A stretch of 64,000 bases of DNA, taken from positions 134,991 to 198,990 of the forward strand of contig JAVZBY010000003.1 in assembly GCA_038874655.1 (NCBI GenBank), read 5' to 3'. Positions 4,324-52,197 of this stretch are shown piece after piece. The stretch is from Candidatus Woesearchaeota archaeon. GTDB taxonomy: Archaea; Nanobdellota; Nanobdellia; Woesearchaeales; GW2011-AR15. The notes beneath the pieces were generated by a model. That model made no database searches, was not told the DNA's origin, and was given only the letters and a program-made list of their open reading frames with translations. Numbering within the stretch: the stretch's first letter is position 1; every line of letters starts with the position of its first letter. A program made the position numbers and the translations under genes.

Positions 4324-4920
4324 ATGTATACTATTATCTATATGTCTGATTACACATCACCTTTTAGAACAGGAATTGCTTTTTTAGATAGATTAGGTGT
4401 TTACGAAGTTTTATTGCCTTTCCTCTTAATTTTCACATTAGTTTATGCCATTTTAGAAAAATCAAAAGTTTTTGGTGTTGAGCATGTTGGTGAACATACA
4501 TATTCTAAAAAAAATTTAAATGCTATGTTTGCATTTGTAACTGCATTCTTAGTTGTCGCAAGCTCAAGATTAGTTGCCACTATTAATGAAGCTGTTGCAA
4601 ATATGACCATTTTAATGCTATTAGGTGTTTGCTTTTTATTATTACTGGGTGTATTTCATACTGGTGATAAAGAATTAGAATTATCCCAAACTTACAAAAC
4701 AATCTTTACTGTTATAAGCTTTATTGGAATTATAATAATATTTTTACATGCTTTAAAAACAAATGATGGAACACCTTGGCTTTATTATGGTTGGAATTTT
4801 TTAGTAACTAATCTAGACACAGGAGCTGTAGGTGCTGTTATATTAACAATAGCAGTTGTAGTTTTAATGGGCTATATTACAAGTGACCAAAAATCTAAAG
4901 TAGAAGAGAAAAAAGATTAA
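4324..4920 (+). CDS. membrane protein, paralog 1 of a tandem triplet
   Basis: N-terminal FLDRLGVYEVLLPFLLIFTLVYAIL is nearly identical to ILDRMGVLDILLPFLLIFTIAFAVL of the next ORF. 4 to 5 TM segments. Confidence 0.55.
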   Translation: MYTIIYMSDYTSPFRTGIAFLDRLGVYEVLLPFLLIFTLVYAILEKSKVFGVEHVGEHTYSKKNLNAMFAFVTAFLVVASSRLVATINEAVANMTILMLLGVCFLLLLGVFHTGDKELELSQTYKTIFTVISFIGIIIIFLHALKTNDGTPWLYYGWNFLVTNLDTGAVGAVILTIAVVVLMGYITSDQKSKVEEKKD

Positions 4921-4961
4921 ATATAATAAAAATATAATATAAAAAATAAATAGGTGAAAAA

Positions 4962-5549
4962 ATGCAAACATTTACAGATTGGATACTAATTTTAGATAGA
5001 ATGGGTGTTTTAGATATACTTCTTCCATTTTTATTAATTTTCACAATAGCATTTGCAGTTTTACAAAAAAGCATGATTTTAGGCCCAAACTCTAAAAAAT
5101 TCAATACAATTGTTGCTTTTGTTATAGGTATGGCATCTGTAATGCCACATATTGTTGGTAGAGGCCCTGATGTTGTGCCTATTATTAATAGTGCTTTGCC
5201 TAATGTTTCTGTTTTAATGATTGCTTCTATGATGGTTTTATTAATGATAGGTGTATTTGGTAATAATGTTAATGTTGCAGGCACACCCTTAGTAGGAATT
5301 GTTGTTTTATTCTCTGCAATAAGTGTTGGCTATACCTTTATAGCTGCTGCTGGCGGCTTGCCAATGATTCCTTTTTTAAATGATCCTGAAACATTGCAAT
5401 TATTAGTTGCTATTTTAGTATTTGGAATAATAGTATGGTTTATAACAAAAGAAGAAAATGTTCCACAACACAAAAAAACATTTAAGGAACACTTAAATGA
5501 TTGGTTTGGCGGAATGTATGGTGGTGGAAGCCAAGGAGGTCATCATTAA
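4962..5549 (+). CDS. membrane protein, paralog 2 of a tandem triplet
   Basis: Shares the conserved N-terminal LDRxGVxxxLLPFLLIFT block with 4324..4920. Gly-rich tail GGMYGGGSQGGHH. Confidence 0.55.
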   Translation: MQTFTDWILILDRMGVLDILLPFLLIFTIAFAVLQKSMILGPNSKKFNTIVAFVIGMASVMPHIVGRGPDVVPIINSALPNVSVLMIASMMVLLMIGVFGNNVNVAGTPLVGIVVLFSAISVGYTFIAAAGGLPMIPFLNDPETLQLLVAILVFGIIVWFITKEENVPQHKKTFKEHLNDWFGGMYGGGSQGGHH

Positions 5550-6109
5550 TGGCATCCTTATTAGATATATCATTATTGAATTATTTTTCAAATGTATTTG
5601 TTATTCTATTTGTTTTTGCAGCAACTTATGCTGTATTAATGTTTAAAAACCCATTTCAAATATCAGAAGAAAAAAAATACATTAATTCTGTAATTGCAAT
5701 TACATTAGCATTAATGATGATATTCTCTCAAGACGCAATTGAAATTATAAAAAACACAATTCCTTGGTATATTATTATGCTTATTTCATTGTTATTTGTA
5801 ATTATAATTGCCAGTGCATTTAATACCTCAATTCCAAGTTCATTATCAAGCTCAATGGGCACCTATATTTTAGTAATCGCTATAATAATCTTATTAATTA
5901 ATGTTGCCAACAAAATAGGACAACAAGCAGGGCCTTATTTATCAGGAAACGCTAATCCTGATGTTGTTGTTCCAAATGGAGAAGGAGATGTTGCCTCAAA
6001 TAGCTTTACTCAAAACTTTGGCGCTACTCTATTTCATCCAAAAGTTTTAGCAATGATTTTAGTTTTAATTATTTCTTTATTTGCTGTTCTTTGGATAGGA
6101 TATAAATAA
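5549..6109 (+). CDS. membrane protein, paralog 3 (start moved to the ATG overlapping the upstream stop, TAATG, preceded by GGAGGT)
   Basis: MASLLDISLLNYFSNVFVILFVFAATYAVL has the same architecture as the two upstream ORFs. The track ORF began 48 nt earlier inside the previous gene. Confidence 0.5.
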   Translation: MASLLDISLLNYFSNVFVILFVFAATYAVLMFKNPFQISEEKKYINSVIAITLALMMIFSQDAIEIIKNTIPWYIIMLISLLFVIIIASAFNTSIPSSLSSSMGTYILVIAIIILLINVANKIGQQAGPYLSGNANPDVVVPNGEGDVASNSFTQNFGATLFHPKVLAMILVLIISLFAVLWIGYK

Positions 6110-6145
6110 AAAAATCAAACAAAAGAAAAATTAAAAAAATTTAAT

Positions 6146-7894
6146 TTAAACTTTATCAAAATAGCTTGGTAATGTGGTTGATCCTAAAAAATTAACAATT
6201 ACTCCTCCATAAGCACAATGATTTAAATTAGTATTAGGAACATAAATACCTTTTATCTTTATTTTATTATGTTCTATTTTATATAAACTTTTTTTATTAA
6301 TATTACCCTCTTTAATAGTATAAGGAAGAACAAAACAAGAATCTCCACTACTACAATAGGATACAACAGAAATTAAAAGTGTTTTTTCCTCTGCTATACA
6401 CAAATTTCCTGGTTCATAAGGTATGCTTAAAAGATAATCCTCTCCTTCTGCTTTTCCACCTACACATCTAGAATCACAATATCCGTCATTTTTTTCTAGG
6501 TTATCATTTTCAATATATCTACATTCACAAAATCCCTCTCTAATAGGCATACAAACATTACTTGAACCGCAATATTCACCATACTTTTTATTACTACACA
6601 TTTTTATAGAATCTATTTCTCCTGATAAAATTTTTATTGTTTCAGGATCATAAGCTAAATTTTTTGAAACATCTTCTATTAAATTTGAATCTAGACATAA
6701 TCTATTTTCAAAATTATAATAAGGATTATAATATCTCCCATTCTCTACACATTTATCATGAATACTTTTTAACATTTCATCACACTTTATAAATTCTTTA
6801 TTAATATCATTATTTTCATAATATCCATAAATCACATTATTCCTCTTATCAAAGTATTTTGGTTCATTTTTAGCTAAGAGAGTAGTATAAACTTTATTAT
6901 TATCTAAATAATAACTAATTGCCCAATTATCTTTATCATTATCACATAAACAATTACCTTCACTTTCACATAACTCATTAAAATAATACATTGGTTTAAA
7001 TAACAAATCTGATTTTATTATTTTTAAAGTATTACAATCTGTCAACGGAGATTTATAAGAAAAACCATCAATATTTGCAATAAGTCTTCCATTTTTATAT
7101 TCAGTTTTTAAACCACGCCATAAATTCTTTTCTGAATCCCAAGTTGCAATTCTATAATTATTTATAGGCAAAGGTAAAGTTGTTTCATCAACATCATAAG
7201 AAAAAATAACTGGTTTTGAAAAAACAACTCCATCTGGCAATCCTTCATAGACTATATTACTATGTACTACCTTATTTTCAAATCCATTAAAGTTAGTATC
7301 ATGAATCTTTATAGAAATTTTATCTACAGGATTTCCATTTTTATCTAGAATTTTTGTTCCTTTTGAAAACAACAAATCAACTTTACCATCTATAGATTTA
7401 ATTACAATATCTCTATCGGTTATACCATTAGGTATTCTAACGAAATTAGTTTTATCTATATTAACTATAAACTCTCTAAACTCTATTTTTTGATTTTCTT
7501 TTTTTAACTCAACAAAATAATTAACATCTAAAGTAATTGTTTCTTCATTTAATTGTACATTTATTTGTAAATCACCTTCTTGAACTTGATAATTTTTCTT
7601 TTCTACCTCTGAAAAAAGTTGTTCTGTGCATAATTTTGTTTTTTGCTTAACTTGATTTTTAAATAATTCTATATTATTTTCATCAATACCTGTTTTTTCT
7701 ATTTCTGTTTTTGCTGCATCAGCAATACATAATTTAATCATTTCTTTAATATTACTTTCATAACTAAACTCAAAATAATTGCTCTTTGAAAAACCTAAAT
7801 TTGTATTTTTATATAACATTAAAATTAAAAATAGTAAAACAATAATTCCAACAATAAAAAAAATAGTAATCTGTGTTTTTTTGAGTTTAATCAT
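6146..7894 (-). CDS. Cys-rich exported protein with pilin-like (class III signal-like) N-terminus
   Basis: N-terminal KLKKTQITIFFIVGIIVLL resembles RYKKAQFFIIDGIFGIIIL of the pilin-like gene at 23809..24339. C-terminal half rich in paired Cys. Confidence 0.5.
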   Translation of the reverse strand: MIKLKKTQITIFFIVGIIVLLFLILMLYKNTNLGFSKSNYFEFSYESNIKEMIKLCIADAAKTEIEKTGIDENNIELFKNQVKQKTKLCTEQLFSEVEKKNYQVQEGDLQINVQLNEETITLDVNYFVELKKENQKIEFREFIVNIDKTNFVRIPNGITDRDIVIKSIDGKVDLLFSKGTKILDKNGNPVDKISIKIHDTNFNGFENKVVHSNIVYEGLPDGVVFSKPVIFSYDVDETTLPLPINNYRIATWDSEKNLWRGLKTEYKNGRLIANIDGFSYKSPLTDCNTLKIIKSDLLFKPMYYFNELCESEGNCLCDNDKDNWAISYYLDNNKVYTTLLAKNEPKYFDKRNNVIYGYYENNDINKEFIKCDEMLKSIHDKCVENGRYYNPYYNFENRLCLDSNLIEDVSKNLAYDPETIKILSGEIDSIKMCSNKKYGEYCGSSNVCMPIREGFCECRYIENDNLEKNDGYCDSRCVGGKAEGEDYLLSIPYEPGNLCIAEEKTLLISVVSYCSSGDSCFVLPYTIKEGNINKKSLYKIEHNKIKIKGIYVPNTNLNHCAYGGVIVNFLGSTTLPSYFDKV

Positions 7895-8092: not shown

Positions 8093-11000
8093 ATGAAAAA
8101 AAAGATGATAAAAAAGAGGTTATATTTTTTCTTAATTCTTGTATCATTTTTTTTATTTTTCTTTATTAATACTATACAATTTTCAAACTCACAAAGTTTA
8201 AATTATGAGAAAATCGGCAGATCTTATTTTAATTCTCCAAATTGCTATATCTATGAAGATAACTCTTTAAAAGATGGCGGCTGCTTATGCTATGAAAATA
8301 AAATAATGGGAACTGGTAATGAAGAGGATGGTTTATACTCAACATGTAAATCTAGTAACATGGATATTACTCAAATAGAAACTTCTTCAAATGAATGTTC
8401 TAAAAATTGTGTTTCTGATCAATACTATATAAGACTTTGCGAATTTGATGGCAAAAACTTCAATTGTAAAATCTTAGAAAAATTAACAGATTTTCCTTCA
8501 ATAAAAGAAATAGAACCAATCCTTGATGAAAATGGAAATAAAAAATGCTCTACTGATTTTTATAGAAATCCTGGGGAAAATAATTGCTATAAATACTATT
8601 TAGACCCAGAGAAAGAATTATGCGAATTACAAGAAACTAGTGAATTAGAAAAGTGTAATTGTTTAGATGTTAATACTGTAAATTGTGGTTTTGATGAATT
8701 ATTAAAATATTGTTGCAAAAAAGAAGAATTCAAAAATGACCCTAGATGTAATTGTAATATATTAAGTATTGAAATCAAAGGTAATGAAATTACTTGTCAA
8801 GAAAGTTATAAAAGGCCTAAAAAAAATTCATTAAACTGTGAAAAATTAACAAAAAAAGATAATTCATGCGTATATTTAGATGTAAATAATAAAGAGTGTT
8901 ATGATTTTGAATTAAATAACCCTAATAAAAGAAATGGCGATTTAAATTGCTTATCTGATCAATTATACCAACTTTATAATGAAGAATGTAAAAATTGTGA
9001 AAGCAAATTTATATATGATGTTGAAGAACATAAATGTTATTATAAATCACCTGAAACATTTTGTACAGAAAAAGAAGTTTATATATGCAATTGTATAGAT
9101 TTACTAAAAGAAAATGAAAAAACCTGTGATAATCCTTTTTATCAAATCTGCAATTTAGAATGTAAAAATAATGAGCAAAAAAGATGTACAAAAGGTTATT
9201 ATAGAGATTCATTTAATTCTGATAAATGTTTTATTCAAAAATTAGAAAACAATATTTGCATAGAAACTCAAGTAGATCCATTAAATTGTTTAGGAATTGA
9301 TGGTTCTAATTCATGTGTTAATGATAAAATAAAACAAATGACTGACGATTGCAATAAAAATTGCTCTGGAATAACTTATTTAAGATCAAAACATAATTCT
9401 AATGATTGTTTTGTTAAATCTCCTGATACAGATTGTGAAAAAAAAGAAACTGATTTAGAAAATTGTTTAGGTATAATGGGATCTAATAATTGTGAAAGTG
9501 ATCCTATTTATAATAGGTATGGTAATTGTGAAAGACAAGATTCTGACAATGATGGCATAGATGATAAATTTGAAAAAAAAGAATGTTTAAACACAAAAAA
9601 TAACGAGCCTGTAAATAATGATGGCTGTTCTTGTTCTCAAATTAATTGTGATGATAATAATCCCTGTACTGATGATTATTGCGAAAATGGTAGATGCATA
9701 TACAAGTATAACAATAACCCTTGTGGAGAATTTAGAAAATGTCCCTCCAGTCAATGTGAAAGCAAATATCCTTATGAAAGATGGATTGAATATCCAGAAA
9801 GTGGAAAAGATTATTGCTCAGAAGGTAAATGCTTAACTTATAGCTGTGAAATAAAAAGCATAAAATACTCTAAATATTGTGATCCTGACGATGATGATGA
9901 CAATGATCCAGATATAACTGATCCATATCCTGAAGATCCTTCTAGAAACACAGAATCAGAAAAAGAAAAACAAATAATTTGTGAAAAAAATGCCCCAAAC
10001 TGTGAATTAAATCTTGGGATTTGTAAAGATTCTAAAAAACAATGTATAAATAATGAATGGCTAACTTGTGACAAAAACAATTATGGCGAAAATTATGTGC
10101 TTGAAGAAGATAATAATCTTTGCGACGGATTAGATAATGATTGTGATGGCACAATTGATGAGAATTGTGAATGTATAAACAATGAAATAAAAGAATGTGG
10201 CATAAATATTGGAATTTGTAAAAAAGGCATACAAAAATGTATTAATGGCAAATGGAGCACTTGTGAAAATGCTATATTTCCAAAAAATGAAACATGTAAT
10301 AATTTAGATGATGATTGTGATGGTTTAACTGATGAAGATATTTACAATTCTGGTGATTACACCTTAAAAGAAGAATGCTTCATAAACCTATGTAAAGGTG
10401 TAAAAAAATGCAATTCTAATTGTGAATTATTTGAAGATAACGATAAAGATAATTATTGTACTACAATAGATAATTGCCCTGAAATTTCAAACACAGATCA
10501 GATAGATAGTGATGGTGATTTTATTGGTGATGCTTGTGATGTTTGTCCATTTGATCCTTTAAATGACATTGATAATGATGGTATTTGTAGTAATACAGAT
10601 AATTGTCCAACTCTTTATAACCAAAATCAACAAGATTCTGATAATGATAACATTGGTGATGCTTGTGATGTTTGTCCAAATGACCAATTAAATGATATTG
10701 ATAACGATGGTATTTGCAGTAATACAGATAATTGTCCTTTAAAATACAATCCTGAACAAATGGATTGTGATAATAACGGTATTGGTGATATTTGTGATTT
10801 AAACTCTCTTTGTGTTATTGATAGTGATAATGACGGAATAAAAGATAATAAAGATAATTGTCCTTATATATCAAATTCAGAACAAACAGATTCTGATAAA
10901 GATAATATCGGTGATGCTTGTGATGTTTGTCCATTTGATTCTTTAAATGATATTGATAAAGATGGTGTTTGTGGGAACATTGATAATTGTCCAAACATAT

Positions 11001-12880
11001 ATAACCCCAATCAACAAGATTCTGATAAAGATAATATCGGTGATGCTTGTGATGTTTGTCCATTTGATTCTTTAAATGATATTGATAATGATGGTATTTG
11101 TGGGAATATTGATAATTGCCCTTATAGATTTAATCCTCAACAAAATGACTGCAATAAAAATGATATTGGTGATGCTTGCGATACTAATTCAGAATGCTCA
11201 ATTGACTCTGATAAAGATGGAATTTTAGATGTTTACGATAATTGTCCCAATATATATAATCCCGAACAAAAAGATGATGATAAAGATGGAATTGGAAATG
11301 AATGCGATTTATTTAAAAATGATTTCTTTAATGATAAAGATAAAGACGGAATCTCTACTGAGATTGATAATTGTCCTTTTAATTATAATCCTGATCAAAA
11401 AGATTCAGATAATGATAAAAAAGGAGATGCTTGCGATATTTGTCCTTATGACCCATTAAACGATATTGATAGTGATGGTATATGTCATAATATACTAAAT
11501 AATATATCTCTTGACAATTGTCCTTTTAAATATAATCCTGAACAATTAGATTGTGATAAAAATGGAATTGGTGATGCTTGTGATTTAAACTCTAAATGTA
11601 TAGGTGATATAGATTTAGATAATATATTAGACACAAAAGATAATTGTCCTTTTAATTATAATCCTGATCAATTAGACCAAGATGGTGATGGTATAGGTGA
11701 TATTTGTGATATTTGTAAAAAAGATGCCTTTAATGATTTAGATAAAGATGGTGTTTGTGGAAATATCGATAATTGTCCAAATATATATAACCCAAATCAA
11801 CAAGATTCTGATAATGATAACATTGGTGATGCTTGTGATATTTGCCCTTACGATCCATTCAATGATATTGACAAAGATTTAATATGTGGTAATTTAGATA
11901 ATTGCTTAGAAACAAATAATCCTAAACAATTAGATTGCGATAAAAATGGAATTGGTGATGCTTGTGATTTAAACTCAAATTGCGTTAAAGATTATGATAA
12001 TGACAACATACTAGATTATTATGATAATTGTCCTGAAAGTTATAATCCAAATCAATTAGACTCTGATAAAGATAATATTGGTGATGCTTGTGATGTTTGT
12101 CCATTTGATCCTTTAAATGACATTGATAATGATGGTATTTGTAGTAATACAGATAATTGTCCAACTCTTTATAACCCAAATCAACAAGATTCTGATAATG
12201 ATAATATTGGTGATATCTGTGATCTTTGCCCAAATGATGAAAATAATGATATTGATGAAGATACAATTTGTGGCAACTTAGATAATTGCCCTTTTATAAA
12301 AAATCCTGGTCAAGAGCTTTGTGATTCTATAAACACTCAACAAATTATATTTGACAACAAATTAAAAATAAGATTAGATAACCTTTCAAGTTTAACAAAA
12401 AAAGGTGTATTCCTAAACATATCAAAAAATGAAGAGGAAAAATTAAAAAAATTAAAAGAAAACATAGAAATTGAAACAAAAGAATATTATATAGATAATA
12501 AAAAATTTACCAAATATAAAATAACAATTGACTCAAAAAATTTAAATAATTTATATTACTATCAAAATATTCCAAAATGCTTAGCTGAGAAAGCAGAAAA
12601 TCTATATTTTAATGGAAAGAATTATCGTATCATTGAAAATGATCCTCTAATTGCATGGCAATATTCTAACACTCTAGATAAAGTTGAAATTACCTATGAC
12701 ATTGAAGGAAGTATCTCTAAAGAATGTTTAGCACAATTAAAAGATTATATTTATTCTTCAACAATTAAAAATGAAAACAAAAAAAATATTTTATACATAA
12801 TAATACCTTTAATTTTAATTCCTTTAATAATTTTCATAGTTATTCTATTAGAAAAAATGCAAAAAACAGATAATAACTAA
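8093..12880 (+). CDS. giant surface protein: signal peptide, EGF-like Cys-rich modules, more than 15 thrombospondin type 3-like calcium-binding repeats, C-terminal TM anchor
   Basis: 1595 aa. Repeated DxDxDGxxDxxDNCP / DSDNDNIGDACDVCP motifs. C-terminal ILYIIIPLILIPLIIFIVILL hydrophobic anchor. N-terminal signal peptide. Confidence 0.8.
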   Translation: MKKKMIKKRLYFFLILVSFFLFFFINTIQFSNSQSLNYEKIGRSYFNSPNCYIYEDNSLKDGGCLCYENKIMGTGNEEDGLYSTCKSSNMDITQIETSSNECSKNCVSDQYYIRLCEFDGKNFNCKILEKLTDFPSIKEIEPILDENGNKKCSTDFYRNPGENNCYKYYLDPEKELCELQETSELEKCNCLDVNTVNCGFDELLKYCCKKEEFKNDPRCNCNILSIEIKGNEITCQESYKRPKKNSLNCEKLTKKDNSCVYLDVNNKECYDFELNNPNKRNGDLNCLSDQLYQLYNEECKNCESKFIYDVEEHKCYYKSPETFCTEKEVYICNCIDLLKENEKTCDNPFYQICNLECKNNEQKRCTKGYYRDSFNSDKCFIQKLENNICIETQVDPLNCLGIDGSNSCVNDKIKQMTDDCNKNCSGITYLRSKHNSNDCFVKSPDTDCEKKETDLENCLGIMGSNNCESDPIYNRYGNCERQDSDNDGIDDKFEKKECLNTKNNEPVNNDGCSCSQINCDDNNPCTDDYCENGRCIYKYNNNPCGEFRKCPSSQCESKYPYERWIEYPESGKDYCSEGKCLTYSCEIKSIKYSKYCDPDDDDDNDPDITDPYPEDPSRNTESEKEKQIICEKNAPNCELNLGICKDSKKQCINNEWLTCDKNNYGENYVLEEDNNLCDGLDNDCDGTIDENCECINNEIKECGINIGICKKGIQKCINGKWSTCENAIFPKNETCNNLDDDCDGLTDEDIYNSGDYTLKEECFINLCKGVKKCNSNCELFEDNDKDNYCTTIDNCPEISNTDQIDSDGDFIGDACDVCPFDPLNDIDNDGICSNTDNCPTLYNQNQQDSDNDNIGDACDVCPNDQLNDIDNDGICSNTDNCPLKYNPEQMDCDNNGIGDICDLNSLCVIDSDNDGIKDNKDNCPYISNSEQTDSDKDNIGDACDVCPFDSLNDIDKDGVCGNIDNCPNIYNPNQQDSDKDNIGDACDVCPFDSLNDIDNDGICGNIDNCPYRFNPQQNDCNKNDIGDACDTNSECSIDSDKDGILDVYDNCPNIYNPEQKDDDKDGIGNECDLFKNDFFNDKDKDGISTEIDNCPFNYNPDQKDSDNDKKGDACDICPYDPLNDIDSDGICHNILNNISLDNCPFKYNPEQLDCDKNGIGDACDLNSKCIGDIDLDNILDTKDNCPFNYNPDQLDQDGDGIGDICDICKKDAFNDLDKDGVCGNIDNCPNIYNPNQQDSDNDNIGDACDICPYDPFNDIDKDLICGNLDNCLETNNPKQLDCDKNGIGDACDLNSNCVKDYDNDNILDYYDNCPESYNPNQLDSDKDNIGDACDVCPFDPLNDIDNDGICSNTDNCPTLYNPNQQDSDNDNIGDICDLCPNDENNDIDEDTICGNLDNCPFIKNPGQELCDSINTQQIIFDNKLKIRLDNLSSLTKKGVFLNISKNEEEKLKKLKENIEIETKEYYIDNKKFTKYKITIDSKNLNNLYYYQNIPKCLAEKAENLYFNGKNYRIIENDPLIAWQYSNTLDKVEITYDIEGSISKECLAQLKDYIYSSTIKNENKKNILYIIIPLILIPLIIFIVILLEKMQKTDNN
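10440..12300 (+). repeat. in-frame tandem/dispersed DNA repeats encoding the TSP3-like units (129-bp period; ~100-bp perfect duplicate)
   Basis: 10889..10958 is identical to 11018..11087 (period 129 bp = 43 codons). 10522..10622 is identical to 12076..12176. Confidence 0.75.
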
Positions 12881-17276: not shown

Positions 17277-20200
17277 CTAAGATTCTAAATCAACACTAGA
17301 TTCTGCTACTTTATTAATGATCCTGAAACTACCTCCTTTGTATAGATAAGCATTTATCTTATAATTAATTCCTTCTCTTACACAATAGGGGTTTGATAGT
17401 AAAGGCTCAATTACTATACCTTGAATATAAACACTTCTCATATAATCCACAATAACGCTTTTTCCGAATATAGTAGATGGATCATGTATATCTAACTCTA
17501 TATCTGAATAACCTTCATAATCTCTGTTATTTACTATATAATATAAATCATAACATACCATGTTTCCTTTATTGAATCTAGAATCTGGCATTGCTCTTAT
17601 CTCAAATTCTGGAATCACAACTTCTAACTCAATATCTTTTTGAGCTAAAAGATCATTATTGTTTTTTATATATAATTTTAATATTGCTTTACTTGAAGTA
17701 TAATCCTTTACTAAAACAACAAAATTAATCTCTTTTTCTTCTCCAGCAGTAATTTTTTTGATAATTAGATTATTATTTTTTACATCTATTTTATTTGGCG
17801 CTTCTAAAGAAATAACTAAATCTTCTAACTCTCTATTTAGATTGTTTTTTAATTTTACTTTTACTAAAACAGAATCTAATACATTAACAACATTTTTAGT
17901 ATTAATAGTTATTGTAAATAACTCTTCATTAAGTAGACAGTTTTCATCTACTTGTCCATTACAGTTATCGTCTATATTATTACATAATTCCATTCTTCCT
18001 GGATTTATATTATAATCATTATCATTACAATCATTACTACCTGAACATGTGCTTAAAATTTTATAATAACCATCATTATCTAAATCTACACAAACAGGTT
18101 GTTGATTTTGTGTTGTTGGTTTATAACATAATTTTGTATTTGAATTGCATAATAATCCACTCTTACAAGAATCTCTTTTTTCATAACAATCTTCGCATGC
18201 ACAACCCTCGCCTATTTCACATTCTCCGTTTGGTTGCCCTATACATCCTTTTTTGCCGCCATGATTTTCACATGTTGCATCACAAGTATTATCATTACAT
18301 AAAACAGTTCCTTCATCACAATAATAAGTTCTATCTTCTACACACAAAGAAGTGAAATAATTACACTTTGCTCCTAAAACACAACCGTCTCTTAAATCAT
18401 GACAATCTTTACAACCACATCCTTCTCCTAATTGACAGAAACCATCTTCAACAATGCAACCTTTAACACCTCCATGATTAGCACATGTTTCATTACAGGT
18501 ATTATCATTACATAAAGTTGTTCCAACAGGACAACCACATAAACCAAAAGAACAAATAGCTCCTTGAACACAACTATCTTGTTTGTTTCTACAATCTTCG
18601 CAAGCACATCCTTCTCCTATTTCACATTTTCCGTTTCTATTTATACAACCTGCAAAACCACTATCTGTTTCTAGACAATTTCTACTACATGTTCCGTCTT
18701 TACATAATGCTGTTCCAGGCAAACATTGTTTAAATGCATCATTGCAATTACTACCATTCCAAACACAACCAAATTGTGTTAATGATGCCCTACAAGGATC
18801 AAAAACACATGAAATCTCATTAGTATAGTTTGAACATTTCATATTACTTTTACAATTTTCACAATAATCCCCTAAATTACTTGTTGGGAATAAAGCATCA
18901 AAAATAGTGCTTGTATTTATCCAATAACCCCCACAATCAAATAAACATTTCTCTGCACTACAACCTTCTAAAAAAGGAGGTATTATTGTTTGTTTCCCAC
19001 AATTTTCTGGCTTATCACATCCACTTGTACATAAAGGATTAGAATAACTAAATGGATTTGTTATTGGATTAATTTTACGCTGTGTTAAATATACTTTTCT
19101 CAAATTAACTAAACCTTCAAAATTAACATTGAAATTCATTACTGAATCAGTTTTTATAACTAAACAATCTAAATCATTTTTAACTTTTGATAAGTACAAT
19201 ACTTCTTTATTATTATCTCTTAATTGATAACTATCTTGGTTTAAATCAAAATTATTTAATTCTTTAACAAGCATAGATTTTTCTGAATTTATCCTTATAG
19301 TAATATTGTGTTGAATACTATCGTCTGAATAAGTACAAACAAAATAATTACAATTTGAATCCCATATATATACTCCATAACCCTGCAAAAACTCTGGTTC
19401 ATCAATTAAACCATCGCAATCATTATCAACACCATCATTTAATGTACTTTCAAAATTTTCTGTTTTTACACAAGGTAAAGAACATTTTTCATTAAGATAA
19501 TCACATACTAATCCCTGTGCACAACTATCTTTTTTATTAGAGCAATCTACACATGCACAACCTTCTCCTTCTTCACATATGCCATTTCTTATATTACAAC
19601 CCTTTGATGCTGTATCAGTTTCTTTACAATTTTCACTACATGTCCCCTCTTGGCATAGTGTTGTTCCTAAAGGACATTGACATAAGAAATTAGTATCACA
19701 AACAGCACCTAAAACACATCCATCTTGTTTTCCTAAACAATCTGAACATGCACACCCTTCTCCTTCTACACAATTTCCATCTGGATCACCAATACAACCC
19801 ATAAAATCTGTATCTGTTTCTTTACAATCTGAACTACATGTTCCATCTTGACATAAACCTGTTCCTACTGGACAACCTTTTAATTCACAACTACATGTGT
19901 TTAAATTACATGTTTTACCTTCACCACAATCTTGATCATTACCACATTGTGCCCCACATTTATTCTTTACACACTTGGGTAAATCATATAAACAGTTACA
20001 ATCTGCACATCCTATTCTTTGTGAAACTTTTTTACTATTTTGTGAACACAAAAATTCATTGCAATTATTGCCAAAAACAGGTCGATTATTTATAACATCA
20101 CATTCTTCTACTGATTCTAGTTTTTCATTACCACATATATTAACATTTTCACCTACACAACTATTACAACTCATAACATCTGCATCTGTTATAGCACCAT

Positions 20201-21851
20201 CACTATTAATATCATAAATATTTAAAGACTCTGTATCTGTTTTTCCGATATTATTAAATATTGCTGTTAAATCTGCATCATCTACTACATTTGAACTTTC
20301 TCCTTCTGTATTAACATTACATTTTAAACATATATTTTGACAAGTTTCATCTATATATCTTATCCAAACACCATACCTTGGTCTTCCTAAAATATTTGTT
20401 ATCTCAACTTCTTTACAAACCTTTTTTACACCTTGTGAGCAATATGCAAAATTTTCTTCTCTACATTTACCTTGCTCATCTACACAAAGATGTGTATTAT
20501 TAATACAACATGAAGAAGGATTATTACTCAATTGACCTATTTCTGAATATTGCATATATGCTGGATTTACAGAATTATAAGTATTAATTGAAACATAATA
20601 GTCAATTGGTATTTCCTTATTATCATCTCCACAACACAATCCTTGAATATCTTCTAACCCCTCAACTTCTTCATTGGGTTTAAAAGTATCTTTACCATAA
20701 TAACATTGATTTTCATTTTCACAATCAAACCATTTTGATTTAATAAAGTGATAAACATATTGTGGTGTCTCAGGTGTATTTGACATAGATACAAACTCTT
20801 TAATAATTACTTTATCTGTACAATTCCCTTCATTTACATCCAAATCAAGCCACCCTCCTTGAATACCATTTCTTGAATAACAATATTCTATTTCATTATC
20901 ACCATCTGCATCAATTAAAGTGCCAACTGGATGTCCTTTTTTATTAATGTCAACACAATCTGTATTCCTGTAACTACAATTTATAATATTTGTATTTGAA
21001 TTACATTCATCCCAATTATATACTAAATTATTCTCATAAAAATAATAATAAGTATAATCATAAGGATTTTCATCTCTTCCAGTTTCAAAAACATAATAAT
21101 CAAAATCAGGATTAATATTATCATTAACTTTTGGACAATAGAAGAAATTTTCATATCTTATTGGAACAATCACTTCTTCTGTAACATCATATGTATTTGT
21201 GTCTAATGCGGTTTTTATTTCATTTCTATTACCTTTAACTATAACCCTTAAAGGAGTATTAGAAACAATACTTTGTGTAATTGCTTCATTAGGAACTTGA
21301 ATCTCTTCCCTAAATGCATATGCATTTCCAACATTATTATAAACTAAATCCTCATTATCCCAACTTTTATCAACTGTTATAGTATCTCCACAATATGTAC
21401 AAGCTACTTCTAAAATAAATTTTTTTGAATTAGGACTATTATTCAAACAAATCTCTGAAACAGAAGCAGTTAAAGATGCTGGCGGATAATTACAAACATT
21501 ATTATTACATATGCCATAATAGCCACACTTTGTTCCTAATCCAGAACATGTGCCACAATTATTAGTTGGTGTTATTTGTACACCACATTGCACTTGAGAT
21601 GCAGGTGGACATTGAGGTGTACATGATGAACCCTCATTATATTGTCCACAACAACACGCTAAAACACCATTATCATCTCTACATCCATCAAAGCCAGGTT
21701 TACAGTTTGGATAAGTATATTGAATATCTCCCTGACAACAATATTGACTACATAATTTAGCATTAGAGGGAAATAAAAATATTATAAAAAAAATTAAATA
21801 TATTATATAATAAAAATTGTTAAACTTATAATTCTCTTTCATATACCCCAC
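17277..21851 (-). CDS. giant (1524 aa) secreted modular Cys-rich protein with at least 5 copies of a ~65-aa module, dockerin-like and DxDxDG motifs
   Basis: Signal peptide. Repeated CPxGTxLCxDGTCSxxCxETDTxxxGCIxxxGxCExGEGCACxDC modules. DINSDGAITDADV dockerin-like loop. NDGVDNDCDGLIDE. Confidence 0.75.
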   Translation of the reverse strand: MGYMKENYKFNNFYYIIYLIFFIIFLFPSNAKLCSQYCCQGDIQYTYPNCKPGFDGCRDDNGVLACCCGQYNEGSSCTPQCPPASQVQCGVQITPTNNCGTCSGLGTKCGYYGICNNNVCNYPPASLTASVSEICLNNSPNSKKFILEVACTYCGDTITVDKSWDNEDLVYNNVGNAYAFREEIQVPNEAITQSIVSNTPLRVIVKGNRNEIKTALDTNTYDVTEEVIVPIRYENFFYCPKVNDNINPDFDYYVFETGRDENPYDYTYYYFYENNLVYNWDECNSNTNIINCSYRNTDCVDINKKGHPVGTLIDADGDNEIEYCYSRNGIQGGWLDLDVNEGNCTDKVIIKEFVSMSNTPETPQYVYHFIKSKWFDCENENQCYYGKDTFKPNEEVEGLEDIQGLCCGDDNKEIPIDYYVSINTYNSVNPAYMQYSEIGQLSNNPSSCCINNTHLCVDEQGKCREENFAYCSQGVKKVCKEVEITNILGRPRYGVWIRYIDETCQNICLKCNVNTEGESSNVVDDADLTAIFNNIGKTDTESLNIYDINSDGAITDADVMSCNSCVGENVNICGNEKLESVEECDVINNRPVFGNNCNEFLCSQNSKKVSQRIGCADCNCLYDLPKCVKNKCGAQCGNDQDCGEGKTCNLNTCSCELKGCPVGTGLCQDGTCSSDCKETDTDFMGCIGDPDGNCVEGEGCACSDCLGKQDGCVLGAVCDTNFLCQCPLGTTLCQEGTCSENCKETDTASKGCNIRNGICEEGEGCACVDCSNKKDSCAQGLVCDYLNEKCSLPCVKTENFESTLNDGVDNDCDGLIDEPEFLQGYGVYIWDSNCNYFVCTYSDDSIQHNITIRINSEKSMLVKELNNFDLNQDSYQLRDNNKEVLYLSKVKNDLDCLVIKTDSVMNFNVNFEGLVNLRKVYLTQRKINPITNPFSYSNPLCTSGCDKPENCGKQTIIPPFLEGCSAEKCLFDCGGYWINTSTIFDALFPTSNLGDYCENCKSNMKCSNYTNEISCVFDPCRASLTQFGCVWNGSNCNDAFKQCLPGTALCKDGTCSRNCLETDSGFAGCINRNGKCEIGEGCACEDCRNKQDSCVQGAICSFGLCGCPVGTTLCNDNTCNETCANHGGVKGCIVEDGFCQLGEGCGCKDCHDLRDGCVLGAKCNYFTSLCVEDRTYYCDEGTVLCNDNTCDATCENHGGKKGCIGQPNGECEIGEGCACEDCYEKRDSCKSGLLCNSNTKLCYKPTTQNQQPVCVDLDNDGYYKILSTCSGSNDCNDNDYNINPGRMELCNNIDDNCNGQVDENCLLNEELFTITINTKNVVNVLDSVLVKVKLKNNLNRELEDLVISLEAPNKIDVKNNNLIIKKITAGEEKEINFVVLVKDYTSSKAILKLYIKNNNDLLAQKDIELEVVIPEFEIRAMPDSRFNKGNMVCYDLYYIVNNRDYEGYSDIELDIHDPSTIFGKSVIVDYMRSVYIQGIVIEPLLSNPYCVREGINYKINAYLYKGGSFRIINKVAESSVDLES

Positions 21852-21972: not shown

Positions 21973-22998
21973 CTAATTCACATTCTTTATTAATATCAAA
22001 GCACCTTTTTTTGTATCTGGTAAATCTTCAATGGAATATGCGTTAAAATTACAATCTAATAACCTTAAATTACTATCACCAAATAATTCATCAAAATTAA
22101 TATTAGTTTCTGTATCATCATTAACATTTTTTGCTTTAAATGTCAATTTAGCTATACTTCCTGAACCAGAAGCACATTCATTACCTATAACTCCTAAACT
22201 AAATCTTCCCTCACTTGGACTTATCAATGGATAAGAAATACTGTTTATTTCTTTATGAGAATTATCTAAATTAACAACAAAAACAGAATCAAATAAACTA
22301 TTTTCATTATAAGATGACGATGTAATTATACCAGTCCTTTCAAGAGATATAAAATTAGGGTCATACTTTATAGTAATTTGTATAGATCTTAAATTATTAA
22401 CACAATAAAGATTCAAATACAAATCAAACTCATTGTTCTCATTAACAATTACATCATATTTGCTGTAAATATTGCTTTGTTTTGATTCCAAACTAGCTTG
22501 ATTTTTAGAAATTCTTATTCCATCTTTATCACTTTTAGTTATACAATGTCTATTAGTAGTTTCATTAATCTTTTCTGCAAAATTCCCTTTCACAAAAGTA
22601 GGCAAAATACTATTATAGGTTTTTTTCACTTTTTTATTTCCGCCTAAATAATATTTATCAAAAATAATTAAGGTTATTTCATCATTGCTTAAATTAAGTG
22701 TATATTCATATCCCATTAATCGTGTTGGTAATTCAAATTCCCTATAATAATTATTATGCATTGATGAAGCAATAATAATTTCATTTTTTATATCATTAAT
22801 CAAATTAATAATCTCTTGATTTTCTTTTTCTTGGCTAATCTCAGAAATTCTATTTGTAATTAAATATATAAAACCAGTTATAACTAAAAAAACAATACCA
22901 AAAATTAATATAAATTCAAAGGATATCTGAGCTATTTTAGCTATTTTAAAGTATTTAAGCAAACCTTCTTTTGTTATAGTTTTATTAATTTTTTTCAT
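21973..22998 (-). CDS. pilin-like protein (class III signal-like N-terminus), large C-terminal domain
   Basis: MKKINKT...KIAKIAQISFEFILIFGIVFLVITGF. Start moved to Met17 to avoid overlap with the upstream gene. Confidence 0.45.
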   Translation of the reverse strand: MKKINKTITKEGLLKYFKIAKIAQISFEFILIFGIVFLVITGFIYLITNRISEISQEKENQEIINLINDIKNEIIIASSMHNNYYREFELPTRLMGYEYTLNLSNDEITLIIFDKYYLGGNKKVKKTYNSILPTFVKGNFAEKINETTNRHCITKSDKDGIRISKNQASLESKQSNIYSKYDVIVNENNEFDLYLNLYCVNNLRSIQITIKYDPNFISLERTGIITSSSYNENSLFDSVFVVNLDNSHKEINSISYPLISPSEGRFSLGVIGNECASGSGSIAKLTFKAKNVNDDTETNINFDELFGDSNLRLLDCNFNAYSIEDLPDTKKGALILIKNVN

Positions 22999-23030
22999 TT
23001 TAAAAACATCAATTTTCACAGAGACTTTAA

Positions 23031-23819
23031 TCAAGTTTCTTGACAACCATTTTTACAAATACCTTTTCCTTTAAAATTATCACTTTTACTTAATTTATTT
23101 AAAACAGATGCTTCGTCATCATTATTAGTATCAATCAACCAACTATTTGTAATTTTACCTCTATTTCCTGCTGAATCATAACTATAAATTCCATAAACAC
23201 TTATCTTTATTATTTTATTAGTTTTCCCTTTCCATGAAGCAAAATTAGTTTTATCTGCTATTTCATAATTAAAAGTTCCATTTAATTCTAATGTCCATGG
23301 ATCAATTTGCTTAATAAAATTTCCAAAAAAAGAAACATTTAATTTTTTCAATTCAATATTTAAGTAAGAAAAATTTTTTTCTAAATCACTTTTTAAATTA
23401 GTAAACAAATATCTTTTGTCAATGTAATTCAATTGTGTTAAATTATAATCTCTATTATTAACAGTCAAATTACCATCATAAAAAACATCTGGAAATGCTG
23501 ATAAGAAAGATTTAATATAATTTTGATTAAACCCATTATCATAATAAAAATGTGATAAACCAATTATGACTTCTTTAGAACTAATATATAACATGTTTTC
23601 TAAATAATAATTTTCAAAATCATTCACAAATGAATTTAAAACTTTTAACCTTGCTCTTGTAGCATCAAGATCTGAAACTTTTTCATATCTTTTTGAGTTT
23701 AAATCAATAGTTGCTAAAAATAAAAAAACAAATAAAATAGAAGTAATTGTAAAAAAAACAGACTTTTTATTATTTTTTAATCTAAATTTTTTTAATTTAA
23801 TTAAGATTCTATTTTTCAT
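23031..23819 (-). CDS. pilin-like protein
   Basis: Basic leader KKFRLKNNKKS followed by VFFTITSILFVFLFLATI hydrophobic segment, then soluble domain. Confidence 0.45.
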   Translation of the reverse strand: MKNRILIKLKKFRLKNNKKSVFFTITSILFVFLFLATIDLNSKRYEKVSDLDATRARLKVLNSFVNDFENYYLENMLYISSKEVIIGLSHFYYDNGFNQNYIKSFLSAFPDVFYDGNLTVNNRDYNLTQLNYIDKRYLFTNLKSDLEKNFSYLNIELKKLNVSFFGNFIKQIDPWTLELNGTFNYEIADKTNFASWKGKTNKIIKISVYGIYSYDSAGNRGKITNSWLIDTNNDDEASVLNKLSKSDNFKGKGICKNGCQET

Positions 23820-46566: not shown

Positions 46567-46622
46567 ATTTTCACCTTGTATTTTTTTAATAATACTTTTT
46601 TAATATTTTCTAAAACTTTTTT

Positions 46623-47861: not shown

Positions 47862-47862
47862 T

Positions 47863-51951: not shown

Positions 51952-52086
51952 GCGCAGGTAGTGAAGTGGTCAAACACGATAGACTCAAGAAATTTGAGTG
52001 TTGAGCTTTATGCTATGAAAAACACTTGCCCATTATGAGGAATCTATTCCCTTAGTGGGTTCGCAGGTTCGAATCCTGCCCTGCGC
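51952..52086 (+). tRNA. tRNA-Leu (anticodon CAA), type II variable arm, ~50-nt intron at the canonical 37/38 position
   Basis: GCGCAGG acceptor paired with CCTGCGC, anticodon stem ATAGA/TCTAT with loop CTCAAGA + insert, variable arm CCC-TTAGT-GGG, T-arm GCAGG-TTCGAAT-CCTGC. Confidence 0.65.
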
Positions 52087-52197
52087 AGTTTTTATTTTGA
52101 TTTAAAAAATTTATTCTATCTAATTAAAAAGAACATTTATATAATAAGAAAGATTTGTTATAGTTATAATTGTTATAAAATAGTGTGAGGTGAGCAT

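What the first reader, a model, noticed from the sequence alone, without database searches (positions are those of the whole stretch)
8093..12880. 1595-aa membrane-anchored surface protein made of Cys-rich modules and more than 15 thrombospondin-type-3-like calcium-binding repeats, encoded by near-perfect DNA repeats
The protein body is dominated by DxDxDGxxDxxDNCP...DSDxDxIGDACDxCP units, the TSP3 / calcium-binding motif. It ends in a single hydrophobic anchor (ILYIIIPLILIPLIIFIVILL).
At the DNA level, 10889..10958 is repeated exactly at 11018..11087 (129-bp = 43-codon period). A ~100-bp segment at 10522..10622 is identical to 12076..12176, 1.5 kb away.
Such long perfect repeats inside an ORF are substrates for slipped-strand or homologous recombination. 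Repeat number, and therefore protein length, may vary between cells or strains.
Spurious antisense ORFs (His/Tyr-rich) in this region are artefacts of the repeat.
Basis: seen in the sequence. Interest (0 to 1): 0.6.

Follow-up and report, generated by a model that had tools for sequence, protein, structure and literature searches.

The report
Fixed-length calcium-repeat surface protein of DPANN archaea
This is a real 1595-residue membrane-anchored surface protein of a tiny Woesearchaeota-type archaeon; its thrombospondin-like calcium-binding repeats carry exact DNA copies made by gene conversion, but the repeat number is held at 14 across relatives rather than varying.

Summary
ORF 8093..12880 (+) encodes a 1595-aa protein with 136 cysteines. 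Pfam TSP_3 scores E=2e-63, and the array matches solved thrombospondin-2, COMP and TSP-1 structures. There is a C-terminal membrane helix. The exact repeats are 72 bp and 101 bp (128/129 over one 129-bp unit).

The array is 14 double units in the order (AAB)4AA. Eight of nine complete, syntenic orthologues at 45-62% identity also have 14 units, spanning 608-610 aa in seven of them. One has 13. The identical tracts have sharp edges and lie in register, as gene conversion does. They homogenise sequence without changing unit number. Protein length varies in the N-terminal head (about 420-1010 aa), not in the array.

Architecture:
- signal peptide
- variable cysteine-rich head
- two MopE-like modules
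- constant calcium "wire"
- beta-sandwich plus membrane-helix anchor module with no Pfam or NCBIfam model, found in about 280 protein clusters; every taxonomically named one is a DPANN archaeon

The heads almost completely lack N-glycosylation sequons: 3 observed against 59 expected.

Best reading: a recognition or adhesion protein on a fixed-length, calcium-stiffened stalk. It is a new variant of a known kind.

The parts
8093..12880 (+). Complete gene for the 1595-aa type I membrane surface protein. NCBI names the identical protein 'MAG: thrombospondin type 3 repeat-containing protein [Candidatus Woesearchaeota archaeon]'.
   Evidence: ORF list. 100% match to P0001. Syntenic orthologues.
8093..8197 (+). 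Signal peptide, aa 1-35: a Lys/Arg-rich start, a hydrophobic core, then SNSQS.
   Evidence: Read from the translation. Equivalent N-termini occur in P0004, P0005, P0007, L006, L007 and L008. Cleavage is inferred, not tested.
8198..9541 (+). Variable cysteine-rich head, aa 36-483, built of roughly 58-59-aa Cys modules. It is the least conserved part of the family.
   Evidence: Direct repeats at 174/177-bp spacing (D4 and D6). Identity to eight orthologues is 10-35%, with up to 44% gaps. No Pfam family.
9542..9979 (+). Conserved cysteine-rich region, aa 484-629. It holds an isolated DxDxDG loop (SDNDGIDD), the CSCSQINCDDNNPCTDDYC module and the acidic linker DPDDDDDNDPDITDPYPEDP.
   Evidence: Family alignment. 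The AlphaFold model was unusable at pLDDT 44.
9980..10363 (+). Two 58-aa MopE-like modules, aa 630-757, each ending in CDGLDNDCDGTIDE or CNNLDDDCDGLTDE.
   Evidence: Direct repeat D5 at 174-bp spacing. Motif positions 681 and 739 are conserved in all orthologues. Pfam Cu-binding_MopE did not reach E<=0.1 on this protein.
10433..12313 (+). TSP3 calcium-binding array. It has a leading half unit (aa 781-803) and then 14 units (aa 804-1407) in the order (AAB)4AA, where A is 43 aa and B is 42 aa. Unit 8 carries the 6-aa insert LNNISL. There are 29 Asp-rich loops in total.
   Evidence: Pfam TSP_3 E=2e-63. PDB hits: thrombospondin-2 8e-37, COMP 3e-30, TSP-1 3e-17. Unit parsing. Tandem Repeats Finder periods 129 and 384.
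10522..10650 (+). Gene-conversion tract, copy 1 (units 1-2). It is 128/129 identical to 12076-12204, with 101 bp exact.
   Evidence: Flanks drop to 62% and 75% identity.
12076..12204 (+). Gene-conversion tract, copy 2 (units 13-14).
10888..10959 (+). 72-bp exact tract in unit 4, identical to 11017-11088 in unit 5.
   Evidence: Flanks are 58% and 75% identical.
11017..11088 (+). 72-bp exact tract, second copy (unit 5).
12314..12787 (+). Lys/Glu-rich linker and membrane-proximal beta-sandwich domain, aa 1408-1565. Motifs are IPKC, F.NG.NY, DPxIxW and Y.IEG...C.
   Evidence: Exhaustive profile search gave 287 proteins at E<=1e-3. Of the top hits, 146 of 151 cover the core and 129 of 146 lie within 100 aa of the C-terminus. 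AlphaFold pLDDT 76.7. No significant PDB fold match. No Pfam or NCBIfam family.
12788..12877 (+). Membrane helix ILYIIIPLILIPLIIFIVILL (aa 1566-1586) and the 9-aa cytoplasmic tail EKMQKTDNN.
   Evidence: Translation. Helix in the model. Aligned membrane helices in relatives, 96 of 142 of which have tails of 30 aa or more.
10815..11063 (-). Spurious antisense ORF (82 aa, His/Tyr-rich) inside the array.
11985..12266 (-). Spurious antisense ORF (93 aa, His/Tyr-rich) inside the array.
6146..7894 (-). Divergently transcribed 582-aa membrane-anchored protein. It is a conserved neighbour of the TSP3 gene and a possible partner.
   Evidence: tblastn finds a homologue directly upstream, on the opposite strand, in L003, L006, L007, L008 and L020. 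No Pfam family.

Best explanation
**What it is (shown).** The gene encodes a conserved, syntenic type I cell-surface protein of Woesearchaeota-type DPANN archaea. From the outside of the cell inwards it has:
- a poorly conserved, disulfide-rich head that lacks N-glycosylation sequons
- two MopE-like Cys modules
- a constant-length thrombospondin-type-3 'wire' of 14 double units (29 Asp-rich calcium loops, about 609 aa, four Cys per unit)
- a beta-sandwich domain
- one membrane helix and a short cytoplasmic tail

**What the repeats mean (shown, then inferred).** The long exact DNA repeats are tracts of intragenic gene conversion between units in the same register. They homogenise sequence while purifying selection keeps the number and order of units fixed.

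**How it probably works (inferred).** Calcium and disulfides stiffen the array into a spacer of defined length. The spacer holds the variable head at a set distance from the membrane. The head then binds a partner surface, such as a host cell, a neighbouring cell or a particle.
For: **Architecture and homology**
- TSP_3 E=2e-63.
- The array matches solved T3 structures of thrombospondin-2, COMP and TSP-1.
- The anchor module is modelled as a beta-sandwich plus helix and is shared by about 280 proteins.

**Constant unit number**
- 14 units, AABAABAABAABAA, in 8 of 9 complete orthologues. The array spans 608-610 aa in seven lineages, while total length ranges from 1252 to 1839 aa.
- There are no gaps in the array in the nine-way alignment.

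**Gene conversion**
- Tracts have sharp edges.
- Paralogous units W1/W13 are 92% identical and W4/W5, L1/L3 and L6/L7 are 88%. Orthologous units are 64-79% identical.
- L001 has lineage-specific shared substitutions (GEACDKCP).
- Some orthologues have independent tracts and others have none.

**Positional orthology persists**
- 5-6 of 14 best matches fall at the same position, against about 2 expected by my own estimate (1/10 per A-type unit, 1/4 per B-type unit), not a computed null.

**Core-gene status**
- The order [582-aa gene, divergent] - [TSP3 gene] - [ValRS, convergent] holds in five lineages where ValRS is 53-72% identical.

**Variable tip, conserved stalk**
- Identity rises from 10-23% at aa 1-350 to 55-69% in the array.

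**Exposure outside the cell**
- N-x-S/T sequons in the heads: 3 observed vs 59.5 +/- 7 expected. The reversed motif is 60 vs 59.
- Cys-poor proteins with the same anchor are about 2.2-fold enriched in sequons.

**Literature analogy**
- Archaeal and bacterial TSP3 proteins are linked to adhesion or the surface matrix (PMC6461757, PMC6593220).
- TraA of Myxococcus presents a variable head on a stiff cysteine-rich stalk (PMC12045341).
Against: - No experiment or expression data exists. Calcium binding, disulfides, signal-peptide cleavage and surface location are inferred from homology and sequence.
- The head has no recognisable fold, and its model failed (pLDDT 44). No ligand can be proposed.
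- High head divergence could reflect relaxed constraint rather than selection for recognition.
- One orthologue has 13 units, so the number can change.
- Only nine complete arrays were examined. All come from metagenome assemblies, and short-read assemblers can collapse or normalise repeats.
- A fixed-length stalk fits a structural envelope protein as well as an adhesin.
Confidence: 0.6

Rival explanations
1. One reading: a length-variable surface protein. The perfect repeats drive slipped-strand or unequal recombination, so repeat number and protein length differ between cells or strains, as at a contingency locus.
For: - Exact 72-bp and 101-bp repeats exist.
- One orthologue differs by exactly one 43-aa unit.
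- A near-identical copy of the P0005 gene carries a 1-bp deletion inside the array.
Against: - 8 of 9 complete arrays have the same 14 units in the same order, and the span is 608-610 aa in seven lineages.
- Orthologues with no exact repeat of 20 bp or more (L008) or none above 21 bp (the P0005 type) still have 14 units.
- The 101-bp pair lies 1554 bp apart and copied sequence without adding a unit.
Confidence: 0.1
2. A structural envelope protein: the S-layer subunit or its membrane stalk. The calcium-loaded array sets the width of the space under the layer, and the cysteine-rich head forms the lattice.
For: - Constant array length.
- A single conserved syntenic copy beside a housekeeping gene.
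- A C-terminal membrane helix. From my own knowledge, this is typical of several archaeal S-layer proteins, and many S-layers depend on calcium.
- The anchor module is shared by many surface proteins.
Against: - The outermost 350 aa are the least conserved part, at 10-23% identity with many gaps. That is unusual for lattice-forming contacts.
- From my own knowledge, archaeal S-layer proteins are usually heavily N-glycosylated, whereas this head has almost no sequons.
- Cys-poor, sequon-rich proteins with the same anchor, such as P0133 (156 sequons), are more S-layer-like candidates.
Confidence: 0.2
3. Mainly a calcium- or mineral-binding device. The 29 Asp loops would serve to capture or buffer calcium, or to stick the cell to carbonate or mineral surfaces, and the head would be secondary.
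For: - The array is 23% Asp and 16% Asn.
- It is homologous to calcium-filled T3 repeats.
Against: - A buffering role would not need a fixed order and number of units, positional orthology, or a large conserved Cys framework in the head.
- From my own knowledge, the calcium in solved T3 repeats is structural and buried.
Confidence: 0.07

Closest known systems
Type 3 repeats of metazoan thrombospondins and COMP (PDB 1YO8/2RHP, 3FBY, 1UX6)
   Same: Significant sequence similarity (E=8e-37 to 3e-17). Both have Asp-rich loops of two alternating kinds, with conserved Cys and DNCP...NP.Q motifs.
   Different: - 29 loops in about 615 aa. From my own knowledge, thrombospondins have 13 motifs.
- A strict (AAB)4AA super-repeat.
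- No TSP_C lectin domain, EGF repeats or coiled coil.
- Followed by an unrelated beta-sandwich and a membrane helix.
- Archaeal host.
Prokaryotic TSP3-repeat surface proteins: TraB and OmpA-like proteins, the Myxococcus mts cluster protein MtsC, and TT3R proteins of Nitrosopumilus and Poseidoniales
   Same: All are TSP3 repeats in extracellular proteins tied to adhesion, cohesion or the surface matrix (PMC12045341, PMC6593220, PMC6461757). The NCBIfam MtsC model scores 313.9 bits.
   Different: - The MtsC score is below the 350-bit cut-off, and there is no MYXO-CTERM tag.
- The bacterial examples cited use short TSP3 linkers (PMC12045341).
- Here the array is long and of fixed length, and it is combined with a DPANN-specific anchor module.
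TraA of Myxococcus (polymorphic recognition receptor)
   Same: The same design logic: signal peptide, variable distal domain, stiff disulfide-rich stalk, C-terminal membrane attachment (PMC12045341).
   Different: No sequence relationship was tested or claimed. The TraA stalk is made of Cys-rich beta-hairpins, not TSP3. TraA has a cleaved, lipidated sorting tag, whereas this protein has a true membrane helix.
MopE-type 'putative metal-binding motif' proteins (Pfam PF11617)
   Same: The motif C-D-G-x-D-N-D-C-D-G-x-x-D-E occurs twice, at aa 681 and 739. The nearby 1524-aa protein does hit PF11617 (E=7e-11).
   Different: The TSP3 protein itself did not reach E<=0.1 for PF11617.

Membership tests
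Pfam TSP_3 (PF02412) repeat-containing proteins | Significant match to the TSP_3 profile above the gathering score. | tested here: met
   210 bits against a cut-off of 25, E=2.3e-63, 14 stretches. All orthologues match too.
Pfam TSP_3 (PF02412) repeat-containing proteins | Similarity to experimentally solved calcium-binding T3 repeats. | tested here: met
   phmmer against the PDB: thrombospondin-2 8e-37, COMP 3e-30, TSP-1 3e-17.
Pfam TSP_3 (PF02412) repeat-containing proteins | Actual calcium binding and disulfide bonding. | not testable with these tools
   Only inferred. Co-loss of the 2nd and 3rd Cys in window unit 7 and in P0007 unit 4 hints at an intra-unit disulfide.
Thrombospondin/COMP family proper | C-terminal TSP_C lectin-like domain after the T3 repeats, with EGF repeats before them. 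| tested here: not met
   Pfam finds only TSP_3 on this protein and on six relatives.
MtsC, cell-cell cohesion MYXO-CTERM protein (NCBIfam NF047638) | Score at or above the curated cut-off, plus a MYXO-CTERM tag. | tested here: not met
   313.9 bits against a cut-off of 350. The C-terminus is a beta-sandwich plus membrane helix with no sorting-tag hit.
Omp28-related selenoprotein (NCBIfam NF045500) | Match over the length of the 377-position model. | tested here: inconclusive
   319.7 bits is above the 200-bit cut-off, but it comes from 14 separate stretches. The best of these covers only profile positions 273-312, which looks like the shared TSP3 segment. I do not file the protein here.
Contingency or length-variable repeat surface proteins | Repeat number differs among related genomes. 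| tested here: not met
   14 units in 8 of 9 complete arrays, and 13 in one.
Contingency or length-variable repeat surface proteins | Repeat-number heterogeneity within a single population. | not testable with these tools
   No reads are available. The exact protein is not in the contig index.
Archaeosortase/exosortase-type C-terminal sorting signals (PGF-CTERM and similar) | Short signature motif, membrane helix, and a basic cluster at the extreme C-terminus, recognised by NCBIfam models. | tested here: not met
   No CTERM model hit even at E<=10. 96 of 142 relatives have tails of 30 aa or more after the helix, and PxxxxP occurs in only 53 of 146.
DPANN C-terminal anchor module (no Pfam or NCBIfam model; delineated here) | Beta-sandwich with the IPK[C] and DPxIxW motifs, followed by a membrane helix near the C-terminus. 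| tested here: met
   The profile finds 287 proteins. The IPK motif occurs in 136 of 146 and DPxIxW in 133 of 146. Named members are Woesearchaeota, Nanoarchaeota and Iainarchaeum.
Pfam Cu-binding_MopE (PF11617) | Profile match above threshold. | tested here: not met
   No hit at E<=0.1 on this protein. The motif is visible by eye at aa 681 and 739.

The most novel reading that the evidence does not exclude
The family could be the main partner-recognition receptor of this clade of episymbiotic DPANN archaea. On this reading:
- The invariant 14-unit, roughly 609-aa calcium wire acts as a molecular ruler that sets the gap between symbiont and host membranes.
- The hypervariable, sequon-free cysteine-rich head determines host specificity.
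- Gene conversion keeps the ruler uniform.
- More broadly, these archaea would build two exclusive classes of surface protein on one anchor module: disulfide-rich and sequon-poor, or Cys-poor and sequon-rich.
Probability: 0.2. Interest if true: 0.7.

Novelty: new variant of a known kind. Interest (0 to 1): 0.4.

Why it matters
TSP3 repeats are well known, and this protein is already auto-annotated as carrying them, so its existence is not news. Three things are new.

- **A repeat array that does not vary.** Long perfect repeats might be expected to make the array length-unstable, yet this one is held at exactly 14 units across deeply diverged lineages while gene conversion rewrites its sequence. 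Exact intragenic repeats should therefore not be read automatically as phase or length variation.
- **An uncatalogued family.** The analysis defines an orthologous, syntenic surface-protein family and a C-terminal anchor module that Pfam and NCBIfam do not model. This gives a handle for cataloguing the surface proteins of Woesearchaeota and Nanoarchaeota, organisms whose cell-cell contacts are central to their biology but poorly understood.
- **Sequon avoidance.** The cysteine-rich heads avoid N-glycosylation sequons about 20-fold, while Cys-poor proteins on the same anchor are enriched. This is a directly testable statement about how these archaea build their surface.

Tried and rejected
**Searches that found nothing useful**
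- The look-up of encoding contigs for the window protein: not on record, so no source contig or reads.
- The search for homologous proteins with the N-terminal alignment A1: no hit at all, not even the query's own entry. I treat this as a limit of the tool, not as evidence.
- The same tool with the anchor alignment A3: only six short proteins.
- NCBIfam at E<=10 on the C-terminus and Pfam at E<=1 on 24 anchor modules: no consistent family.
- BLASTP of the neighbouring 582-aa, 1524-aa and cohesin proteins against the TSP3 protein: no similarity at 1e-3, so they are not paralogues of it.
- Literature searches for TSP3 with Woesearchaeota or DPANN: nothing on this family.

**Structure work**
- AlphaFold of the conserved Cys region, aa 484-800, with five sequences: pLDDT 44, so not used.
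- Foldseek against the PDB with the anchor domain: best E=0.018. The hits were mu-homology and CBM2/chitin-binding beta-sandwiches, so no assignment was made. Two weak Pfam hits to Adap_comp_sub (E=0.042) point the same way but are not significant.

**Ideas rejected**
- A sorting-signal reading of the Pro-rich membrane helix, because most relatives have long cytoplasmic tails.
- A recent tandem duplication as the origin of unit 1, because 14 units is the ancestral state in the family.

Full report
**1. Checking the observation**

The ORF at 8093..12880 (+) starts with ATG and encodes 1595 aa. The window has about 25% G+C. It contains a 136-nt intron-bearing tRNA that only the Rfam model finds, which fits an archaeon. 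The protein is 100% identical to an NCBI entry named 'MAG: thrombospondin type 3 repeat-containing protein [Candidatus Woesearchaeota archaeon]', from a 204-kb contig.

Both claimed exact repeats are real and slightly longer than stated:
- 10888-10959 = 11017-11088 is 72 bp.
- 10522-10622 = 12076-12176 is 101 bp, and 128/129 over 10522-10650.

All 13 exact repeats of 25 bp or more in the 64-kb window lie inside this gene. Codon bias is strong (GAT is 89% of Asp codons). Paralogous units therefore already share 71% of codons at identical residues and 74% of bases. A 101-base run is still improbable, at a naive 1e-13.

Pfam TSP_3 scores E=2.3e-63 in 14 stretches. The array also matches solved thrombospondin-2, COMP and TSP-1 chains at E=8e-37 to 3e-17.

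**2. Anatomy of the protein**

The TSP3 array:
- Anchoring on the DNCP....N..Q motif cuts the array into a leading half unit and 14 units (aa 804-1407, nt 10502-12313).
- There are two unit types. A is 43 aa: DSDxDxIGDACDxCPxDxxNDIDxDGICxNxDNCPxxYNPxQ. B is 42 aa: DCDKNGIGDACDLNSxCxxDxDxDxIxDxxDNCPxxYNPxQ.
- The order is (AAB)4AA. This explains the 129-bp period nested in a 384-bp period.
- Each unit has two Asp-rich loops and four Cys. Unit 7 has lost the 2nd and 3rd Cys together, as has unit 4 of P0007.

Upstream of the array:
- a signal peptide
- a head of roughly 58-aa Cys modules (repeats at 174/177-bp spacing)
- an isolated DxDxDG loop and a CSCSQ module
- an acidic linker
- two MopE-like modules

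Downstream of the array:
- a Lys/Glu-rich linker
- a beta-sandwich domain
- a membrane helix and a 9-aa tail (AlphaFold pLDDT 76.7)

**3.

A word-indexed search found one close orthologue, P0002 (L001, Woesearchaeota, partial at its N-terminus). It is 61% identical globally. The only large difference is one missing 43-aa unit, at window aa 805-847.

An exhaustive HMMER search with the C-terminal module found 287 proteins. Among them are the full-architecture relatives P0004 (1839 aa), P0005 (1710 aa) and P0007 (1252 aa). Scans of genome and metagenome contigs added L003, L006 (=L019), L007 and L008.

| Feature | Result |
|---|---|
| Unit number | 14 in 8 of 9 complete arrays, order AABAABAABAABAA; 13 in P0002 |
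| Array span | 608-610 aa in seven lineages; 615 in the window (6-aa insert); 566 in P0002 |
| Head length (residue 31 to first TSP3 motif) | about 420 to 1010 aa |
| Gaps in the array, nine-way alignment | none |
| Identity to orthologues | 10-23% in the first 350 aa, 55-69% in the array |

In L003 one B unit is 41 aa. In L006 my pattern split one A unit in two. Both arrays still count as 14 units.

**4. What the exact repeats are**

- Within a genome, some A units are far more alike than orthologous units are. W1/W13 are 92% identical, and W4/W5, L1/L3 and L6/L7 are 88%. Orthologous pairs are 64-79% identical.
- L001 units 1, 3, 6 and 7 share GEACDKCP, which no window unit has.
- The tracts have sharp boundaries. 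The 128/129 tract is flanked by 37/60 and 45/60 identity. The 72/72 tract is flanked by 35/60 and 43/57.
- The B units, and units 10 and 14, keep their best match at the same position across genomes. Overall 5-6 of 14 best matches are positional, against about 2 expected by my own estimate, which is not a computed null.
- Other orthologues have their own tracts or none: L007 at 104/56/50 bp, L001 at 50/43 bp, L008 with none of 20 bp or more, and the P0005 type with at most 21 bp. All of these except L001 (13 units) have 14 units.
- Fourteen units is the family norm. Window unit 1 is therefore an old unit recently overwritten from unit 13, or the reverse. It is not a new insertion.

This pattern is patchy concerted evolution by gene conversion, with unit number under purifying selection. 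The antisense His/Tyr ORFs are by-products of GAT/AAT/TGT-rich codons. Every orthologue has long antisense frames, but in different places and with different content.

**5. Genomic context**

The order [three small paralogous ORFs, 4324-6109] - [582-aa membrane protein, divergent] - [TSP3 gene] - [ValRS, convergent] recurs in L003, L006, L007, L008 and L020. ValRS is 53-72% identical in these loci. The gene is therefore a stable, vertically inherited part of these genomes.

A 1524-aa Cys-rich protein with a MopE motif and a cohesin-domain protein lie nearby. The 1524-aa protein has homologues in L006/L019, L007 and L020, and the cohesin protein in L007. None of these neighbours is similar in sequence to the TSP3 protein.

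**6. The anchor module**

- Of the top hits, 146 of 151 cover the beta-sandwich core, and 129 of 146 lie within 100 aa of the C-terminus.
- The IPK motif occurs in 136 of 146 and DPxIxW in 133 of 146.
- The carrier proteins range from 106 to 2781 aa.
- Only six of 152 retrieved proteins carry at least two TSP3 motifs: P0002, P0004, P0005 and P0007, plus two others that I did not identify individually (P0037 is one).
- Named carriers are Woesearchaeota, Nanoarchaeota and Iainarchaeum. A few contigs are labelled 'uncultured Methanosarcinales', but they share the synteny and ValRS at about 70% identity, so that label is doubtful.
- Pfam and NCBIfam have no model for the module. Foldseek against the PDB gives no significant match.
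- Most relatives have cytoplasmic tails of 30 aa or more. The helix is therefore a true anchor, not a cleaved sorting tag.
- A few profile hits (P0020, P0120) match only the Lys/Glu-rich linker and are probably spurious.

**7. An unexpected feature: sequon avoidance**

| Region or set | N-x-S/T observed | Expected |
|---|---|---|
| Heads of nine family members | 3 | 59.5 +/- 7.0 |
| Same heads, reversed motif S/T-x-N | 60 | 59.3 |
| Window 582-aa neighbour, ectodomain | 0 | 5.9 |
| Window 1524-aa protein | 9 | 18.3 |

- Four other control motifs in the heads are near expectation, with observed/expected ratios of 0.96-1.20. N-x-C is raised, at 1.52.
- Twelve cytoplasmic proteins from the window show no general depletion.
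- Among 92 other proteins on the same anchor, the observed/expected ratio falls as Cys content rises (Spearman -0.50, P=5e-7). The ratio is about 2.2 below 4% Cys and 0.52 above 6%.
- The window also encodes a GlmS/GlmU-like/GlmM-like cluster.

The simplest reading is inferred, not shown. These cells N-glycosylate exported proteins, the head is exposed to that machinery, and glycans on the disulfide-rich head are selected against.

**8. Mechanism and comparison with known systems**

Three things are shown: homology of the array to calcium-filled T3 repeats, the constant unit number, and the gradient from a variable tip to a conserved stalk. The rest is inferred. Calcium and about two disulfides per unit would make a stiff spacer of set length that presents a recognition head.

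The closest functional parallels are prokaryotic TSP3 surface proteins linked to adhesion or the surface matrix (PMC6461757, PMC6593220). TraA shares the design of a variable head on a stiff Cys-rich stalk (PMC12045341).

The protein is not a thrombospondin proper, because it has no TSP_C or EGF domains. It is not MtsC, because it scores below the cut-off. It is not a contingency protein by the between-lineage test.

An S-layer role remains a serious rival, and function is unproven. I rate this a new variant of a known kind, of moderate interest.

Noticed in passing
window 8198-10432 (head); also 6146-7894 and 17277-21851; relatives P0002, P0004, P0005, P0007, L003, L006, L007, L008: The extracellular heads strongly avoid N-glycosylation sequons: 3 N-x-S/T against 59.5 expected across nine orthologues, while the reversed motif is at expectation. 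Among 92 other proteins on the same anchor module, sequon use falls as Cys content rises (Spearman -0.50). Cys-poor proteins are about 2.2-fold enriched.
   Followed up: partly
window 4324-7894; L003, L006, L007, L008, L020: Synteny is conserved. Three small paralogous ORFs of about 195-200 aa (4324-4920, 4962-5549, 5501-6109; no Pfam family) and a divergent 582-aa membrane protein precede the TSP3 gene. ValRS follows it, convergent, in lineages where ValRS is 53-72% identical.
   Followed up: partly
window 17277-21851 (-) and 21973-23046 (-): Two more likely surface proteins lie close by. One is a 1524-aa protein with 9.2% Cys and a MopE metal-binding motif (PF11617, E=7e-11). The other is a 357-aa protein with a cohesin domain (E=3e-9). 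The 1524-aa protein has homologues in L006/L019, L007 and L020, and the cohesin protein in L007.
   Followed up: partly
window 51952-52087 (+): The Rfam tRNA model matches a 136-nt stretch end to end (50 bits), while ARAGORN reports no tRNA there. This is probably an intron-containing archaeal tRNA.
   Followed up: no
window 44851-49242 (-): Three adjacent genes look like a UDP-GlcNAc pathway: GlmS (GATase + SIS), a GlmU-like nucleotidyltransferase with hexapeptide repeats, and a phosphoglucosamine/phosphoglucomutase. Such a pathway would supply sugar for glycans.
   Followed up: no
L020 9083 (contig Ga0233437_1001418): A copy of the P0005 orthologue, 99.9-100% identical, has lost one G (GGG to GG, in CAGGGAATT) inside the TSP3 array. 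This splits the gene into products of 1201 and 484 aa (P0155, P0156). It may be an assembly error or a real frameshift variant.
   Followed up: partly
window 11270-11398 (unit 7); P0007 unit 4: The 2nd and 3rd cysteines of an A unit (CDxC and GIC) are lost together in window unit 7 and, independently, in P0007 unit 4. This suggests that the two form an intra-unit disulfide. In L001 the orthologous unit has the cysteines and looks overwritten by its neighbour.
   Followed up: partly
L003, L005, L007, L014 (records CAYMPC01, CAZHYZ01, CAZJZJ01): These contigs are labelled 'uncultured Methanosarcinales archaeon'. L003 and L007 carry the same synteny, with ValRS about 70% identical to the window's, and their TSP3 genes have 32% and 36% G+C. 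For those two at least, the taxonomic label is probably wrong.
   Followed up: no
P0005, P0006, P0013 and many anchor-module proteins: Many relatives have a conserved helical cytoplasmic tail of about 45 aa after the membrane helix (for example ...DKFEEIIQSKVKEV...KKYIKEIIKRL). The window protein lacks it, ending 9 aa after the helix and 38 bp before ValRS.
   Followed up: no
window 31785-34049 (-): A 754-aa P-type ATPase with an N-terminal heavy-metal-associated domain, probably a copper or heavy-metal exporter.
   Followed up: no
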